From a virus (taxonomy: Duplodnaviria > Caudoviricetes), in IMG/VR virus record IMGVR_UViG_3300031088_000008, positions 224,001-288,000 of that record: a stretch of 64,000 nucleotides of DNA; one strand, given 5' to 3'. Positions 1 through 10,069 of this stretch are shown here, piece by piece. Each line of letters opens with the position of its first letter. Positions within the stretch are counted from its first letter, which is position 1. A model generated the notes under the pieces. That model saw nothing but the letters and a program-made list of their open reading frames with translations, did not search any database and was not told the DNA's origin. A program made the translations under genes and the position numbers.

Positions 1-84
1 TGGAACACCGACAATGATCAGTCACTGGCATCCCCGGCCCCTGGTGAGCCGGTGAGCGTTTCCTTGGGAGCATCGAGCAGCTAA
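1..84 (+). CDS. 3' end of an upstream structural protein, ending in the N-terminal half of an Ig-like repeat (partial)
   Basis: Frame 1 reads WNTDNDQSLASPAPGEPVSVSLGASSS*; TAA 82-84 overlaps the ATG at 84; resembles the WxT..L....G..S..L.A segment of the repeats in the next gene. Confidence 0.7.
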   Translation, partial: WNTDNDQSLASPAPGEPVSVSLGASSS

Positions 85-1229
85 TGGCAAAGACACTGAA
101 GATCCGCTACACAGTTCAGTCGGGCCCTTTGCCCAATGGACTAACATTGAACCCCGATACAGGTCTTCTGGAAGGCAATGTGGGCTGGGACGCACTTGGG
201 CTAGGGCCTCGATGGACAGGCCCCAAGGCGGGCTCCATTGGCGCCTACAATGAGAACGATCCATTCGATGCCGCAACCTTCTCGGCCACAACTGATAAGA
301 CGCCGGTCAGATACAGTATCGTCGGTGGTGTGATCCCCTGGGGTCTGGTGTTTAACGCACAGAGTGGCATGTTGACTGGCACGATCTCCCCGCTAAAACA
401 GAGAACCAACGAGACGGCATCCAACTATGATGGCCCGGCTTGGAACACTTCCTTTGGTACCCTGGCAAACTTTGATGAAGGTTCGACCTCATCGCTGGTT
501 CTTTCCGCTACACCAATTGGCAACAGGACGATGCGTGGTTTCCAGATCGTTGATGGCTATCTTCCCTGGGGACTGAGGCTGGACTTGAACAGTGGTATTA
601 TCTCTGGTAATACCGCGCCACTGAAGAACCCCGGTGCCTATGTGGATGTTCCCAAACTGCCCGTTCCAGTCTGGACCACACCCGGCGGCACGATGGGAAC
701 TTTTGATGAGTTGGCAACCTTCAACCTAACTCTCGCGGCTACTCCAGCCTCTGGTCGTTCAATGGCAAAATACAACATCAACCGTGGTGCATTGCCATTT
801 GGTTTGAGGCTAAACCAGAGAACAGGTGCTATCACTGGTGACTTCGCCAACATGTTCGTTGAAGAAGCTAGTTTTGTTGATCCGGCTAACAATCCAACGA
901 TCTCCAACGCGATGGTAATTCAGAGTGGAAACGCTATCGTGGCAGATGGTGGGTCTCTGGGCTCCTATGCCAAAGGTACCGAGGTAAGTATTGGTTTGAT
1001 TGCAAGGGCGATCACAGGGCGCCAGATCAAGAGCTACCAGATAACCAGCGGTTATCTACCATTTGGTCTGAGGTTGAATCTTCAAAATGGTGTAATCTCT
1101 GGAACCGTTCTAAACAACATTAGAACACAGAGTGGAACCTATACTTTCACCGTTCAAGTTTACGACAAAGGCGATGCTCTGCTTCGTCAGAACTCGGTAA
1201 GCCGAACCTATTCTATCACTGTCCAGTAA
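84..1229 (+). CDS. Putative Ig (He_PIG-like) repeat virion/tail-fibre scaffold protein
   Basis: Five [LI]PxGLx[LF]xxxxGx[IL]xG repeats; C-terminal YTFTVQVYD...RTYSITVQ hairpin. Confidence 0.8.
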   Translation: MAKTLKIRYTVQSGPLPNGLTLNPDTGLLEGNVGWDALGLGPRWTGPKAGSIGAYNENDPFDAATFSATTDKTPVRYSIVGGVIPWGLVFNAQSGMLTGTISPLKQRTNETASNYDGPAWNTSFGTLANFDEGSTSSLVLSATPIGNRTMRGFQIVDGYLPWGLRLDLNSGIISGNTAPLKNPGAYVDVPKLPVPVWTTPGGTMGTFDELATFNLTLAATPASGRSMAKYNINRGALPFGLRLNQRTGAITGDFANMFVEEASFVDPANNPTISNAMVIQSGNAIVADGGSLGSYAKGTEVSIGLIARAITGRQIKSYQITSGYLPFGLRLNLQNGVISGTVLNNIRTQSGTYTFTVQVYDKGDALLRQNSVSRTYSITVQ

Positions 1230-1241
1230 GAGGTAAACCAA

Positions 1242-2468
1242 ATGGCAGTATTTCCTTTCACCGTCCGTGCAACTGATAGCGAAGGTTCCTATGCGGATCG
1301 TCAGTTCTCCATTACGGTTCGCAACAGTCGCGTTGAACGCTTTATGCTTCTAAATGCTACCGATGCCTACACCAGCCCAGATGCAACCTCTTGGACCAAG
1401 AGGACCGGTCAGGGTGGTACAATGTGTGCCTATGGTAATGGTTTCTGGCTCACAGTATTGACAAATCAGACCAATCAGTTTGGCTCGTTCAGTGGTATCT
1501 CCATCCGTAAATCAACTGATGGTATCAACTACCAGTTCTCTCCTGGTACTTCTCTGACCTTTCTAAAAAGTGATGGTACACCCTGGTCCACTAATCTTAA
1601 CCTATTCTTTGGCATGGGTACTCCAACCAGCGGCTACAAGTTGACGTTTTGGAACGGTAAGTTTTGGTTCCTGTCTCCGGGAAATACATTGACCTCTGCT
1701 GTCATCGCAAACACAATGCTCTTGTGGTCGTCGCCGGATGGCCTGACGTGGACCTCGACGGTTCTCAATACGTCCACCAGTGCCACCAATGCCATTAGCA
1801 TGAACTCTGTTGGAAACATCTTTTCTGTCAGCGTTTCCGATGGTGTAATGATGGTTCCAAACTATGCTCTAGGTGGCACCACCTTCTGCATGGGTTGGGT
1901 AACCAGCGATGGCGTAAACTTTACCCAGCTTAAGAACAGTGCAAGTTCCGCGGCAACTAATCAATACAGTCACAGCCTGACGCGAATCAATGGTCTATAC
2001 CTGTCCATGTACAATCAGGTTACCGGTACTGGTACATCTTCCTATAACATCTATCAGTTTTCTACTGATGGTCTTAACTGGACAACCGCACCATTGCCCA
2101 CCACCCCAAGTGGATCAAACTACTCAGGTCCGTTCTTTTATATGAATGGCTTGGTTTATAGTTTCTACTCGTCCACTGTCGCCAACCAGCCTGCTTCATT
2201 CCTTTACTCCAGTGATGCAATCAATTGGACCATTGGCCAGTTTCAGAGTTCTACCAATGCCACTGGTAGCTTTCCCTACTCGGTTGTTGCGAAGAATGGC
2301 TTGCTGGTTGCAGCTTGTCAGAAACAGATGGCTACTGACCTGCCAAACTCTTCCCCCGGCACTCCCACCAATGGTATTAGGGTGTCGGTTGATGGCTTGA
2401 CCTTTACCAGTGTGAGTCTTCCAGGATTGCCAACTGACTTGGTTTCGGACTTGGCTGCAATGAGCTAA
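1242..2468 (+). CDS. Asp-box/BNR beta-propeller protein, putative receptor-binding protein with an N-terminal Ig hairpin
   Basis: Repeated S/T-x-D-G/A-x-x-W/F/Y motifs (SPDATSW, STDGINY, SPDGLTW, TSDGVNF, STDGLNW, SSDAINW, SVDGLTF); S/T/N-rich; SD GAGGT. Confidence 0.75.
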   Translation: MAVFPFTVRATDSEGSYADRQFSITVRNSRVERFMLLNATDAYTSPDATSWTKRTGQGGTMCAYGNGFWLTVLTNQTNQFGSFSGISIRKSTDGINYQFSPGTSLTFLKSDGTPWSTNLNLFFGMGTPTSGYKLTFWNGKFWFLSPGNTLTSAVIANTMLLWSSPDGLTWTSTVLNTSTSATNAISMNSVGNIFSVSVSDGVMMVPNYALGGTTFCMGWVTSDGVNFTQLKNSASSAATNQYSHSLTRINGLYLSMYNQVTGTGTSSYNIYQFSTDGLNWTTAPLPTTPSGSNYSGPFFYMNGLVYSFYSSTVANQPASFLYSSDAINWTIGQFQSSTNATGSFPYSVVAKNGLLVAACQKQMATDLPNSSPGTPTNGIRVSVDGLTFTSVSLPGLPTDLVSDLAAMS

Positions 2469-2474
2469 GGGTGT

Positions 2475-2502
2475 GGCCCAGGGTTCCTTAAAACCCTGGG
2501 CC
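2475..2502 (+). terminator. Hairpin after the structural genes
   Basis: ggcccagggtt-ccttaa-aaccctgggcc, 11-bp stem; weak U-tract. Confidence 0.55.
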
Positions 2503-8727: not shown

Positions 8728-9162
8728 ATGAATGTTCTCATTGTAGGCGATCGGCCTGGACCCAACACGGATCCCAAAGATCCACTGTTCATCCACACGA
8801 CCACTGGCGCGGCTGCGCGGCTTGCCAAGATGATGGCTCTGGACAGTGATGCCTATCACGCAATCCGCCGCATCAACGCTCGTCACGATGGTGAAAAGCT
8901 TCTGGAACTCGATGAAGCGCGAACCCGCCTCCGCAAGACGCTGATGGATCTTGAGGGTCCCTGGCTAACGATCCTCGTGGGAGCCGAGGCAGCGCGCGTC
9001 TATGGCGGTTCCCTGATAGCAGGAAACCCCGTTAGCAGTGGCGATCTCCGTGCCCTCTACATTCCCCACACAAGTGGGATGAATCGTTTCTGGAACGTCC
9101 CCGAAAACGTCCAGTTCTATGAGATGCTCCTAAAAGCGGAACTGGCTAAGATAACTGGTTGA
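8728..9162 (+). CDS. Uracil-DNA glycosylase superfamily-like protein
   Basis: VLIVGDRPG (motif A-like), ILVGAEA, IPHTSGMN (HPS-like motif B). Confidence 0.6.
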   Translation: MNVLIVGDRPGPNTDPKDPLFIHTTTGAAARLAKMMALDSDAYHAIRRINARHDGEKLLELDEARTRLRKTLMDLEGPWLTILVGAEAARVYGGSLIAGNPVSSGDLRALYIPHTSGMNRFWNVPENVQFYEMLLKAELAKITG

Positions 9163-9220
9163 CGTGCTCAACTCTGGTGCTATTCCTGGTACATAGGAAA
9201 CGCACACAGGGAGACAGCAG

Positions 9221-9592
9221 ATGGCCGTTGTGATCAAGATCAAGGCGACGAAGATTTCGGCAAAGAGCAAGCAGGATATCATCCGCAAGCTCGAAGGTGA
9301 TTTCCGCACTGGTTTCCAGCGCCATTACGGCTACGGTCTGGTCGGTCGACGGGATGGCCGTTACGATGGCATCGTCCGCCTTTACAGCCTCGAGAAGCAC
9401 AATCGGAAGGTGCAGGTCACCAAGAAGCTGATCACTCGCGGCAAGGACAAGGGCAAGCTCGCAGAGACGCGGACGGTGCTTCGTGAGAGCGGCTGGATCG
9501 CCCACTACTACGATATCCCCGAGGATATGGTCGAGACGGCGGGTACTTCGCAGGGTACTCGGACGTTCAAGCTCAAGCTGAAGGGCGCGTAA
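9221..9592 (+). CDS. Basic hypothetical protein
   Basis: Cassette promoter and RBS. Confidence 0.7.
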   Translation: MAVVIKIKATKISAKSKQDIIRKLEGDFRTGFQRHYGYGLVGRRDGRYDGIVRLYSLEKHNRKVQVTKKLITRGKDKGKLAETRTVLRESGWIAHYYDIPEDMVETAGTSQGTRTFKLKLKGA

Positions 9593-9828
9593 TGGACTGT
9601 GGTCATCAGTGCCATGAGATCGGGGGTCCCTGGATAGCAGAGGACCCCAACTGCCCCATTCATGGCACCAACGGCGTTGGGGAAGATCTTGAGCGTATGG
9701 TTGACATGCGTGAGGTCATCCGTCTTCTGGTCGAGGCACTGGAACTTCATGAGCGGAACGCCCACTGCTCGCTTTCCCTGGATAGTGAGGACAAGGCGTT
9801 GATCGAGAGGGCCAACTCTTTTCTGTAA
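9592..9828 (+). CDS. Hypothetical protein
   Basis: TAATG coupling; CxxxC...CPIH. Confidence 0.6.
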   Translation: MDCGHQCHEIGGPWIAEDPNCPIHGTNGVGEDLERMVDMREVIRLLVEALELHERNAHCSLSLDSEDKALIERANSFL

Positions 9829-9892
9829 AACTGGTTGACAGCCCTGTCCAGTTTGCTAGGACAGGGGTGTAGGCAACGTAGGGAGAAACAAG

Positions 9893-10069
9893 ATGAGCAA
9901 CACGACGGGAAAGCGGGGCGTTCGCAACATGCAGCGCCGCCAGGTGCGACGTGTTCTCAACGGCTCCCCTGAGTTCTTCACCCGCGCTGGCTCGGCCATC
10001 ACCATCCGCAAGGGCTGGGGCGGCGGCATCGGAAAGAACAATCTCCTCGACCGCAGCGTGGAGGCATAA
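9893..10069 (+). CDS. Small basic protein (58 aa, not in ORF track)
   Basis: Cassette promoter + GGGAG; MSNTTGKRGVRNMQRR... Confidence 0.6.
   Translation: MSNTTGKRGVRNMQRRQVRRVLNGSPEFFTRAGSAITIRKGWGGGIGKNNLLDRSVEA

What the first reader, a model, noticed from the sequence alone, without database searches (positions are those of the whole stretch)
1..1330. Ig domains split across three adjacent genes: a plug-and-socket assembly system for receptor-binding proteins
Seen in sequence: the 381-aa protein (84-1229) has five He_PIG-like repeats, with LPxGL cores at aa ~16, 84, 160, 237 and 325. Only the last carries the terminal hairpin (YTFTVQVYD...RTYSITVQ); repeats 1-4 run from the GxIxG strand through a short linker into the next repeat. 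The next gene (1242) starts with exactly that missing hairpin (FPFTVRATDSEGSYADRQFSITV), fused to a beta-propeller. Repeat 1 also lacks its first strands, and the upstream gene ends with them (WNTDNDQSLASPAPGEPVSVSLGASSS*; compare WNTSFGTLANFDEGSTSSLVLSAT). Inference: the scaffold offers four incomplete Ig sockets, filled in trans by propeller heads with an N-terminal plug, and itself docks onto the upstream protein. This would give a branched, swappable adsorption device, conceptually like donor-strand complementation in chaperone-usher pili but in a phage.
Basis: partly seen in the sequence, partly recalled or inferred. Interest (0 to 1): 0.88.

Follow-up and report, generated by a model that had tools for sequence, protein, structure and literature searches.

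The report
Phage fibre joined by split Ig domains
Three neighbouring genes of a giant phage each carry a different piece of an immunoglobulin-like fold, a cut kept in many related phages, so the three fibre proteins probably snap together by rebuilding that fold; binding is predicted, not shown.

Summary
The window starts inside a three-gene cassette of a 417-kb Atu_ph07-like jumbo phage. g1 is the anchor and ends with He_PIG strands A-B. g2 is a 381-aa scaffold of five He_PIG repeats; repeat 1 lacks A-B, and repeats 1-4 lack the F-G hairpin. g3 is a propeller that starts with an F-G-type hairpin.

The cuts are not errors. A diverged copy of the cassette lies just upstream. The same borders recur in Atu_ph07, Phosso and all related loci examined, with variable frames and overlaps.

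One relative encodes g1+g2 as a single chain, so the g1|g2 domain is one fold. In other phage fibres the same hairpin closes a complete He_PIG domain directly before a head domain. The g3 hairpin is the most conserved part of its family.

AlphaFold2 gives repeats 2-4 only one sheet and disordered linkers. A complex prediction gave weak support only: 0.36 against a best control of 0.00.

Joining by fold complementation is therefore likely (about 0.58). "Four sockets, four heads" remains untested.

A solved precedent exists: the BppU hairpin completes a BppA sandwich in phage Tuc2009. This scan has already reported the same family on other DNA.

The parts
1..84 (+). 3' end of g1b, the anchor protein (239 aa; genome C1:223365-224084). 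These last 27 codons plus the stop encode strands A-B of a He_PIG repeat and nothing after them. The stop overlaps the g2 start (TAATG).
   Evidence: All 32 g1 relatives end 1-3 residues after the invariant A-x-S that follows strand B. The N-terminal tag M-x-I-[RK]-x-x-G-x-[YF]-x-P is shared with g1a and two other proteins of the fibre cluster.
84..1229 (+). g2b, the scaffold protein (381 aa) with five He_PIG repeats.
   Evidence: He_PIG E 9.4e-27, 5 stretches. (42 full-length relatives). (AlphaFold2 mean pLDDT 83.7, pTM 0.40, beads on a string). (Foldseek: tandem cadherin/Ig arrays).
84..179 (+). Repeat 1 of g2b (aa 1-32). It holds strands C-E only, with core LPNGL. It lacks A-B, which are supplied by the g1 tail, and lacks F-G.
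   Evidence: (profile positions 36-64 of 96). In L010 the equivalent repeat is continuous with the g1-like part in one ORF.
207..842 (+). Repeats 2-4 of g2b (aa 42-100, 118-176, 195-253). They hold strands A-E, with cores IPWGL, LPWGL and LPFGL. They have no F-G hairpin and are joined by linkers of 14-19 aa.
   Evidence: profile 24-67 and 15-63 for two of them. (3-5 short strands per repeat; the 10-residue blocks at 101-120 and 181-190 average pLDDT 55-59). (no internal hairpin in 16 of 16 separate scaffold genes).
900..1226 (+). Repeat 5 of g2b (aa 273-381), the only complete repeat. It has two extra N-terminal strands and its own F-G hairpin (aa 349-381, nt 1128-1226).
   Evidence: 316-380 = profile 37-95. 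(16-95). (pLDDT above 90 for most of it; strands 351-362 and 371-380).
1242..1322 (+). N-terminal hairpin ('plug') of g3b, aa 1-27. It is of F-G type and is the most conserved segment of the g3 family.
   Evidence: F4 F6 T7 V8 R9 A10 D12 G15 D19 R20 F22 I24 V26 at 90% or more in 69 sequences. (commonest-residue frequency 0.82 against 0.36 for aa 101-408). (60% of identical-residue codon pairs use different codons). (strands 2-11 and 17-26, pLDDT 68-81).
1242..2468 (+). g3b, the head protein (408 aa): hairpin, then the short conserved linker RNSRVERF, then a beta-propeller with S-x-D-G-x-x-W-like motifs.
   Evidence: pLDDT 86.5, pTM 0.86. (Foldseek: six-bladed propellers, GH74, endosialidase; TM about 0.4). 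(PF13088 BNR_2 precomputed on 8 of 73 relatives). (no Pfam family over cut-off on the query itself).
2475..2502 (+). G+C-rich inverted repeat (9-bp stem GGCCCAGGG/CCCTGGGCC, 10-nt loop) 7 nt after the g3b stop. It is a possible end of the transcription unit.
   Evidence: Read directly. Not flagged by the pattern scan because no T run follows. Not folded.

Best explanation
This is a three-protein virion fibre module of an Atu_ph07-like jumbo phage. The genome holds two diverged tandem copies of it.

- g1 is the anchor. It has a short N-terminal tag shared with other fibre proteins, then Ig-like modules, then one complete He_PIG domain. It stops after strands A-B of the next He_PIG domain.
- g2 is the scaffold. 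Its translation is coupled to g1 by an overlapping stop and start. It begins with strands C-E of that same domain, continues with three repeats that have A-E but no F-G hairpin, and ends with one complete repeat.
- g3 is the head. It is a beta-propeller that begins at residue 4 with an F-G-type hairpin.

Most likely the chains are joined without covalent bonds by rebuilding Ig domains from their pieces. The g1 tail and the g2 head share one domain. The g3 hairpin supplies the missing second sheet of at least one hairpin-less repeat.

Shown here: the pieces, their exact conservation as separate genes, the cis versions in relatives, and the strong protein-level constraint on the hairpin.

Inferred: physical docking, which repeat or repeats accept the hairpin, the stoichiometry (one head or up to four per scaffold), and the role as an adsorption or whisker fibre.
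For: 1. The borders are conserved.
- All 32 g1 relatives end just after strand B.
- All 40 aligned g2 relatives start with the C strand and LPxG core.
- All 20 g3 genes in 11 loci start M-x-x-[FY]-x-F-[TK]-[VI]-R-A.
- By my count of the listing, 127 of the 150 listed relatives of g3 match from query residues 1-6. In 125 of those 127 the match starts at protein residues 1-6.
- In the metagenome loci the hairpin is N-terminal in 13 of 14 g3-type genes. The fourteenth (L106) has an ambiguous start.

2. There is no recoding. The g1|g2 overlap is -1, -4 or -8 nt. The g2|g3 gap runs from -4 to +12 nt and falls in all three relative frames.

3. Cis versions exist.
- L010 encodes g1+g2 as one 1379-aa ORF. 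It has complete repeats, then 11 hairpin-less repeats, then a last complete one.
- In 12 of 12 loci that matched only the hairpin, the same FTVRATD...ADRxFxITV hairpin ends a complete He_PIG domain in cis. In the proteins scanned, a head domain follows directly: Laminin_G_3 in L113 and Gly_rich_2 in L110.
- P0297 has He_PIG profile positions 50-94 directly before a propeller.

4. The hairpin is constrained. Its commonest-residue frequency is 0.82. The cis F-G hairpin of g2 repeat 5 scores 0.51 and the propeller 0.36. The selection acts on the protein: of 3288 identical-residue codon pairs, 1967 use different codons.

5. In the AlphaFold2 model, repeats 2-4 have only 3-5 short strands and poorly predicted linkers. 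The g3 hairpin is less confident than the propeller, pLDDT 68-81 against above 90.

6. Complex prediction: g1 203-239 + g2 1-117 + g3 1-36 gave a weak-support verdict.
- The score was 0.36 and the best of 3 controls 0.00.
- The mark was reached by 58 of 80 solved complexes and 2 of 110 mismatched pairs.
- A passing score of 0.60 or under came from only 7 of those 80 solved complexes and from both mismatches that passed.
- The runs agree in at least 81% of contacts, and the partner's pLDDT is at least 60.
- No interface was given.
- The pass may stem from likeness to solved complete Ig domains.

7. Context. The cassettes lie beside fibre and baseplate-like genes. The g1 tag is shared by four proteins. 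The cultured relative Atu_ph07 has tail fibres and hair-like whiskers (PMC6102473, passages and section 29 read).
Against: - No experiment and no strong prediction shows binding. The only complex run is weak, gave no contacts, and had low pLDDT for the non-partner chains (45-48).
- Any predictor would tend to complete a truncated Ig with its missing hairpin.
- g2's last repeat, the one directly before g3 in gene order, is already complete. The simple picture of one domain cut once therefore does not apply.
- Repeats 2-4 are predicted fairly confidently without a hairpin (pLDDT about 80-90). They carry a conserved aromatic residue in the core (LPWGL), so they could be a self-sufficient short variant.
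- Similarity of the cis-type A-E half to repeat 1 versus repeats 2-4 did not single out any repeat as the ancestral partner.
- The virion proteome table of Atu_ph07 (Supplementary Table S5) could not be read. It is not shown that these proteins are in the particle.
Confidence: 0.58

Rival explanations
1. Every hairpin-less repeat is a socket: four in this g2 counting the split one, and 6-11 in long relatives. Each socket is filled in trans by a propeller head, giving a branched, multivalent bottle-brush fibre with interchangeable heads. This is a more specific version of the best explanation.
For: - All four repeats lack the same two strands.
- The hairpin is almost invariant while the repeats diverge. 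That is expected if one plug must fit several different sockets.
- Both faces of the hairpin are conserved.
- Hairpins of the two cassettes of one genome are nearly identical in L003, L004, L005 and L006, so heads would be interchangeable.
- The 3 long scaffolds (6, 8 and 11 hairpin-less repeats: Phosso, L009, L010) are each followed by two g3 genes. The 14 short ones (13 with four hairpin-less repeats; only 3 units were detected in L007_2) have one g3 gene each.
- The g2 variant P0023 carries a Laminin_G_3 head at its own C-terminus. A cluster member of it shares its contig length (16543 bp) with a g1 hit and two g3 hits. This suggests g3 does not simply cap the scaffold's end.
Against: - Stoichiometry was not tested.
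- Gene order and translational coupling suggest roughly 1:1:1 output.
- The link between scaffold length and two g3 genes rests on three loci, and at least two of them (Phosso and L009) look related.
- Repeats 2-4 have a conserved aromatic residue in the core that repeat 1 lacks. AlphaFold2 predicts them better than repeat 1, so they may not need a partner.
Confidence: 0.25
2. A single three-chain joint. Only the split repeat is completed in trans: A-B from g1, C-E from g2 and F-G from g3. That Ig domain forms a three-way junction that ties anchor, arm and head together at 1:1:1. Repeats 2-4 are a shaft. This is also a version of the best explanation.
For: - The three pieces are collinear and add up to exactly one He_PIG domain.
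- Single-chain fibres elsewhere have [anchor]-[Ig]-[complete He_PIG with the same hairpin]-[head]. That equals g1 + junction + g3 without g2.
- Repeat 1 has the ordinary LPNGL core, like complete domains.
- Genes are coupled one to one.
- The construct that passed weakly contained exactly these pieces plus one competitor repeat (0.36 against a best control of 0.00; same counts and caveats as above; no interface returned).
Against: - It leaves unexplained why repeats 2-4, and up to 11 repeats in relatives, also lack the hairpin.
- No contact map was obtained, so it is unknown where the hairpin was placed.
- The similarity scores did not favour repeat 1.
Confidence: 0.25
3. There is no trans completion by g3. 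The hairpin-less repeats hide their open face in another way. They might stack sheet on sheet in a dimeric or trimeric shaft, or be covered by the conserved tryptophan and linkers. The g3 hairpin would then bind elsewhere: the edge of a complete repeat, another virion protein, or its own propeller.
For: - Many phage fibres are trimers (established knowledge).
- Repeats 2-4 reach pLDDT of about 80-90 alone.
- W is conserved in their cores.
- The g3 hairpin forms on its own in the monomer model.
- The complex support is only weak (counts as above).
Against: - The linkers are the least confident parts of the model, and no extra strands appear.
- The hairpin is homologous to F-G hairpins that close He_PIG domains in cis.
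- In the 11 loci where I read gene order, every g3 gene lies directly downstream of a hairpin-less scaffold gene.
- This rival does not explain the g1|g2 cut inside a domain that is continuous in L010.
Confidence: 0.3
4. An artefact or a recoding event. The three ORFs are one gene broken by sequencing errors, decaying pseudogenes, or genes fused by programmed frameshift or read-through.
For: - Thirteen of 14 g1|g2 junctions put g2 in the -1 frame.
- In cassette b, g2 and g3 are in the same frame.
Against: - The same borders occur in two paralogous cassettes, two cultured phages and dozens of independent contigs.
- Every piece has its own start codon.
- The -1 frame follows from the common TAATG and ATGA overlaps. 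The own_a junction is in the +1 frame.
- g2|g3 junctions occur in all three frames.
- I saw no slippery heptamer at the window's junction.
- All parts are under purifying selection.
Confidence: 0.02

Closest known systems
Lactococcus phage Tuc2009 baseplate tripod: the BppU C-terminal beta-hairpin with BppA domain 2 (crystal structure; PMC4742702, passages of the section 'The Tuc2009 tripod structure' read)
   Same: A beta-hairpin of about 25 residues at the end of one phage adsorption protein 'completes one of [the] beta-sheets' of a sandwich domain of another. The composite resembles an Ig-type (titin) domain. It attaches an accessory carbohydrate-binding protein.
   Different: - In Tuc2009 the hairpin is C-terminal and sits on the scaffold side. 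Here it is N-terminal and sits on the head.
- Here the fold is He_PIG (cadherin-like) and is cut at two places into three genes.
- The scaffold here holds a row of 4-11 hairpin-less repeats.
- No sequence relation was tested.
- The joint here is predicted, not solved.
Donor-strand complementation and exchange in chaperone-usher pili (Fim, Pap, Caf1). This is established knowledge. Related donor-strand fibres (CupE, TasA) appear in the listing, seen as titles and abstracts only.
   Same: An Ig-like fold is incomplete in one polypeptide and is completed by an N-terminal extension of another. This gives a non-covalent but potentially very stable joint in an adhesive fibre.
   Different: - Pilins lack one strand (G). 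Here two strands (F-G) are missing, and in repeat 1 A-B as well.
- Pili are head-to-tail polymers made with a periplasmic chaperone and an usher. This would be a cytoplasmic assembly of three different phage proteins.
- I did not search for a chaperone or usher, and saw no sequence relation.
Single-chain phage fibre proteins with a complete He_PIG domain directly before the head (loci L107-L118; for example L113 He_PIG + Laminin_G_3 + SPRY + DUF7483, and L110 He_PIG + Gly_rich_2)
   Same: They have the same hairpin sequence (FTVRATD...ADRxFxITV), in the same position directly before a receptor-binding-type head.
   Different: Strands A-G lie in one chain. No hairpin-less repeats were seen next to the matched domain. 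The N-terminal anchors are of different kinds.
Branched receptor-binding complexes of phages such as CBA120 and G7C, which use T4 gp10-like adaptor domains (recalled, from no call)
   Same: Several receptor-binding proteins are hung on one another through conserved N-terminal attachment modules, and the heads are exchangeable.
   Different: Those use folded adaptor domains that dock as whole domains. They do not share strands within one Ig fold.

Membership tests
He_PIG putative Ig domain (Pfam PF05345) | A match over the Pfam gathering score. | tested here: met
   g2b scores 93.7 bits against a cut-off of 24, in 5 stretches. g1b scores 50.5 bits.
He_PIG putative Ig domain (Pfam PF05345) | Each repeat covers the whole 96-position profile, including the last two strands. 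| tested here: not met
   Hairpin-less repeats stop at profile positions 63-71, and repeat 1 covers only 36-64. Only repeat 5 and the g1 domain reach 95/96. No internal hairpin was found in 16 of 16 separate scaffold genes.
Hairpin-completed composite Ig-like joint of the Tuc2009 BppU-BppA type | A terminal beta-hairpin of about 25 residues on one protein. | tested here: met
   In g3, strands 2-11 and 17-26 form a hairpin in the AlphaFold2 model. The hairpin is N-terminal in 125 of the 127 relatives that match from residues 1-6 (my count).
Hairpin-completed composite Ig-like joint of the Tuc2009 BppU-BppA type | The partner domain lacks that part of its sheet. | tested here: met
Hairpin-completed composite Ig-like joint of the Tuc2009 BppU-BppA type | The hairpin is seen inside the partner's sandwich. 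| tested here: inconclusive
   One search gave weak support: score 0.36, best of 3 controls 0.00. The mark was reached by 58 of 80 solved complexes and 2 of 110 mismatches. A passing score of 0.60 or under came from only 7 of the 80 solved complexes and from both passing mismatches. Runs agree in at least 81% of contacts, and partner pLDDT is at least 60. No interface was given.
Chaperone-usher donor-strand complementation | The subunit Ig fold lacks only the C-terminal G strand, which an N-terminal extension of the next subunit supplies. | tested here: not met
   Two strands (F-G) are missing, and in repeat 1 also A-B. The donor is a hairpin, not a single strand.
Chaperone-usher donor-strand complementation | A dedicated periplasmic chaperone and an outer-membrane usher. 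| not tested
   I ran no search for them. They are not expected for a phage protein assembled in the cytoplasm (inference).
BNR/sialidase-like beta-propeller (Pfam PF13088 BNR_2) for g3 | A Pfam match over the cut-off on the protein itself. | tested here: not met
   No family scored over its cut-off on g3b. PF13088 is precomputed on 8 of 73 relatives. The fold is a propeller by AlphaFold2 and Foldseek, with TM only about 0.4.
Ig-like domains added to phage structural proteins by programmed frameshift (recalled: Fraser and co-workers 2006; from no call) | A conserved frame relation and a slippery site at the junction. | tested here: not met
   Frames and gaps vary among 14 cassettes. Each gene has its own start codon. 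I saw no slippery heptamer at the window's junction.

The most novel reading that the evidence does not exclude
Every hairpin-less He_PIG repeat is a docking socket. One scaffold would then display four propeller heads, and up to eleven in relatives. The heads would be drawn from whatever plug-bearing genes the phage carries. That would be a natural, non-covalent tag-and-catcher system building a multivalent bottle-brush adhesin, anchored through a three-chain Ig domain. New specificities could be acquired simply by gaining a gene that starts with the 25-residue plug.
Probability: 0.25. Interest if true: 0.85.

Novelty: new variant of a known kind. Interest (0 to 1): 0.62.

Why it matters
If the joint is real, it is a simple and widely conserved way for giant phages to assemble and exchange receptor-binding heads. 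A two-strand peptide of about 25 residues would be the whole attachment module. The Ig fold itself would be the connector, possibly even a three-way junction.

It would explain how the fibre or whisker genes of Atu_ph07-like phages fit together. It would give annotators a rule: an ORF that starts M-x-x-F-x-F-T-V-R-A-x-D is a plug-in head. It would also offer a natural split-domain pair for protein engineering.

The question is directly testable by co-expression, native mass spectrometry and cryo-EM in two cultured phages, Atu_ph07 and Phosso.

I found no description of this in print. The only close precedent I could verify is Tuc2009 BppU-BppA.

Tried and rejected
- Sequencing error or pseudogene: rejected.
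- Programmed frameshift or read-through: rejected, because frames and gaps vary.
- Linkers completing repeats 1-4: not seen in the AlphaFold2 model.
- Other plug-bearing genes in this genome: a regex and a profile found only g3a and g3b.
- Fused g2-g3 forms: none among the 150 listed relatives, apart from the distant fragment P0297. Its viral relatives are unrelated propeller fibres without the Ig part in the 12 loci I read of the 78 fetched, so that path led nowhere.
- Which repeat is the ancestral partner of the hairpin: local alignment scores of 8 cis-type A-E halves against the g1 tail, the g2 head and repeats 2-5 of both cassettes gave no consistent ranking. This is inconclusive.
- PHROGs: nothing informative for g1, g2 or g3.
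- PDB by sequence: only the SraP adhesin 4m03, at E 0.0024.
- Foldseek: generic tandem cadherins for g2 and generic propellers for g3.
- Promoter and terminator scan: counts no higher than in shuffles.
Whether AUZ95021-AUZ95023 are virion proteins is unknown to me.
- Not run: the look-up of sequencing runs, read laying and the protein-atlas search.

Full report
WHAT IS THERE

The window is G000:C1:224001-288000 of a 416,714-bp virus record, about 90% complete. The nearest cultured relatives are Sinorhizobium phage Phosso and Agrobacterium phage Atu_ph07.

Window 84-1229 encodes a 381-aa protein (g2b). Window 1242-2468 encodes a 408-aa protein (g3b). Window 1-84 is the end of a 239-aa protein (g1b, genome 223365-224084).

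Directly upstream lies a diverged paralogous cassette:
- g1a, 220365-220841
- g2a, 220834-221997, 38% identical to g2b
- g3a, 222009-223283, 32-33% identical to g3b

CHECK OF THE OBSERVATION

Pfam He_PIG matches g2b at E 9.4e-27 in five stretches. The LPxGL cores lie at aa 16, 84, 160, 237 and 325.

In the He_PIG scan of the genome, complete copies cover profile positions 9-16 to 95/96. The scaffold repeats stop at 63-71, and repeat 1 covers only 36-64.

AlphaFold2 with 40 relatives gave mean pLDDT 83.7 and pTM 0.40. It shows long F and G strands only in repeat 5. Repeats 2-4 have 3-5 short strands each. The linkers are weak: residues 106-115 fall below pLDDT 50, and the 10-residue blocks at 101-120 and 181-190 average 55-59. 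The model therefore does not use the linkers to complete the domains.

g3b is a hairpin (strands 2-11 and 17-26, pLDDT 68-81) followed by a confident beta-propeller (pTM 0.86). Foldseek finds generic six-bladed propellers.

A profile of the first 34 residues of g3 finds only g3a and g3b strongly in the whole genome. It also finds two cis F-G hairpins of complete repeats weakly. So the N-terminus of g3 really is an F-G-type hairpin.

THE CUTS ARE CONSERVED, NOT ERRORS

- g1: all 32 aligned relatives end 1-3 residues after an invariant A-x-S that follows strand B.
- g2: 40 aligned relatives start with the C strand and core.
- g3 in the fetched loci: all 20 genes in 11 loci (own, Phosso, Atu_ph07, L003-L010) start with the hairpin at residue 4.
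- g3 in the exhaustive profile-free search: 168 proteins had E <= 1e-3 and 150 were listed. By my count 127 match from query residues 1-6, and in 125 of these the match starts at protein residues 1-6. The two exceptions are P0243, a miscalled start with an M just before the hairpin, and P0297, discussed below.
- g3 in the metagenome loci: 13 of 14 g3-type genes start with the hairpin, and one has an ambiguous start.

Junction geometry varies. The g1|g2 overlap is -1, -4 or -8 nt. The g2|g3 gap runs from -4 to +12 nt and falls in all three frames. This excludes a conserved frameshift or read-through and points to translational coupling of g1 and g2.

In Atu_ph07 the annotated start of the g2 homologue (AUZ95022) is too far downstream. 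The frame opens 25 codons earlier, at an ATG overlapping the g1 stop, and those codons encode the C-E strands.

CIS VERSIONS IN RELATIVES

In L010 one 1379-aa ORF holds a g1-like N-terminus and complete He_PIG repeats, then 11 hairpin-less repeats, then a last complete repeat. Two g3 genes follow it. Where this genome is cut between g1 and g2, that protein is continuous. The two halves therefore belong to one domain.

Twelve of 12 metagenome loci that matched only the hairpin carry it in cis, as the end of a complete He_PIG domain. In the proteins scanned, a head domain follows directly: Laminin_G_3 in L113 and Gly_rich_2 in L110. These proteins have other fibre-type N-termini.

P0297 is a fragment from a 1321-bp contig. 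It has He_PIG profile positions 50-94 directly before a propeller.

So 'He_PIG then head' is a common fibre layout, and g3 keeps only its last two strands.

CONSTRAINT ON THE HAIRPIN

In the 69-sequence g3 alignment, residues 1-27 have a mean commonest-residue frequency of 0.82. The frequency is 0.36 for residues 101-408 and 0.51 for the cis hairpin of g2 repeat 5. Consecutive positions are conserved, which means both faces of the hairpin.

Across 190 pairs of 20 genes, 3288 of 4560 codon pairs encode the same residue. Of these, 1967 use different codons. The conservation is therefore at the protein level.

DOCKING PREDICTION

One job was allowed. I gave g1b 203-239, g2b 1-117 (the split repeat plus one hairpin-less repeat as a competitor) and g3b 1-36 as the partner, each with its alignment. 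The verdict was weak support:
- The score was 0.36 and the best of 3 controls 0.00.
- The mark was reached by 58 of 80 solved complexes and 2 of 110 mismatched pairs.
- A passing score of 0.60 or under came from only 7 of those 80 solved complexes and from both mismatches that passed.
- The runs agree in at least 81% of contacts, and the partner's pLDDT is at least 60.
- The pLDDT of the other chains was 45-48.
- No interface was returned.

The pass may come from likeness to solved complete Ig domains. It cannot say which repeat received the hairpin.

HOW IT MOST LIKELY WORKS

g1 anchors the module. Its N-terminal tag (M-x-I-[RK]-x-x-G-x-[YF]-x-P) is shared with g1a and with two further proteins on the other strand (212141-212899 and 213289-214623). 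All four lie in a cluster with tail-fibre and baseplate-like genes.

The g1 tail and the g2 head rebuild one He_PIG domain. The g3 hairpin supplies the missing sheet of at least one hairpin-less repeat and so hangs a propeller head on the scaffold. I give this 0.58.

For several sockets:
- One near-invariant plug faces diverged repeats.
- Plugs of the two cassettes in one genome are nearly identical.
- The long scaffolds (3 of 3) are followed by two g3 genes, while the short ones (14 of 14) have one each.
- A g2 variant has its own C-terminal lectin-like head.

For one joint:
- The pieces add up collinearly to exactly one domain.
- Gene coupling is one to one.
- Repeat 1 has an ordinary core, while repeats 2-4 have a conserved aromatic residue.
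- Single-chain relatives equal g1 + junction + g3.

The main rival (0.30) is that the hairpin-less repeats cover their open face by self-association or by their own residues, and the hairpin binds elsewhere.

COMPARISON WITH WHAT IS KNOWN

The closest solved case is phage Tuc2009. There a 25-residue hairpin of BppU completes a sheet of BppA domain 2, and the composite resembles a titin Ig domain (PMC4742702, passages read).

Pilus donor-strand complementation is an analogy only. Its defining features are either not met (one strand missing, a polymer of like subunits) or were not tested here (chaperone and usher); see the membership rows.

Full-text searches found no description of split He_PIG domains or strand complementation in phage fibres. 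The Atu_ph07 paper reports tail fibres and mainly capsid-associated 'hairy' whiskers, and 131 virion proteins. The protein list is in a supplement I could not open.

EARLIER NOTES OF THIS SCAN

The same split-Ig fibre family has been reported and followed up before, on other DNA and in the upstream cassette of this genome. The verdicts were similar: observation confirmed, reading partly supported.

New here are:
- the fused g1+g2 relative;
- the cis He_PIG-head relatives with the same hairpin;
- the codon-level test;
- the junction-frame table;
- the competitor design of the complex job.

VERDICT

The feature is real and conserved. It is most likely a fold-complementation joint of a modular fibre. 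It is a new variant of a known kind. The branched four-head reading is open at about 0.25. Interest: 0.62.

Noticed in passing
genome C1:212141-212899 (-), 213289-214623 (-), 220377-220841 (+), 223365-224084 (+); upstream of the window: Four proteins of the fibre cluster start with the same tag (M-x-[IVLM]-[KR]-x-x-G-x-[FY]-x-P), followed by different domains. One has a weak CBM_4_9 match, below cut-off. This is probably a common attachment peptide for one site on the virion.
   Followed up: partly
L002 (Atu_ph07, MF403008) 8974-10065: The annotated start of AUZ95022 ('EF hand domain/PKD domain protein') is probably 25 codons too far downstream. The frame opens at an ATG that overlaps the stop of AUZ95021 and encodes the C-E strands of the split repeat.
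   Followed up: yes
P0023 (570 aa; cluster members P0331 and P0332): This is a scaffold variant with a Laminin_G_3 lectin-like domain fused after its last complete repeat. One cluster member lies on a 16543-bp contig. Same contig is inferred from that shared length only.
   Followed up: partly
L003 and L004 (IMG/VR contigs of 462 and 465 kb): The arrangement is g1-g2-g3-g2'-g3'. The second scaffold has no anchor gene of its own, so one anchor may serve two scaffolds.
   Followed up: no
genome C1:214697-215857 (-), 215869-218289 (-), 218298-220304 (-): These neighbours on the other strand are fibre or baseplate-like. The 386-aa protein matches tail-fibre PHROGs and, weakly, the T4 gp9/10 N-terminal domain. 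The 806-aa protein matches a tail-protein PHROG. The 668-aa protein has He_PIG repeats that extend to profile positions 86-94, so they keep at least part of the hairpin.
   Followed up: partly
window 2475-2502, and genome C1 about 223300-223330: G+C-rich inverted repeats follow the stop codons of g3b (9-bp stem) and g3a (GGGGAGAG...CTCTCCCC). Each cassette may therefore be its own transcription unit. No T run follows, so the terminator scan did not flag them.
   Followed up: no
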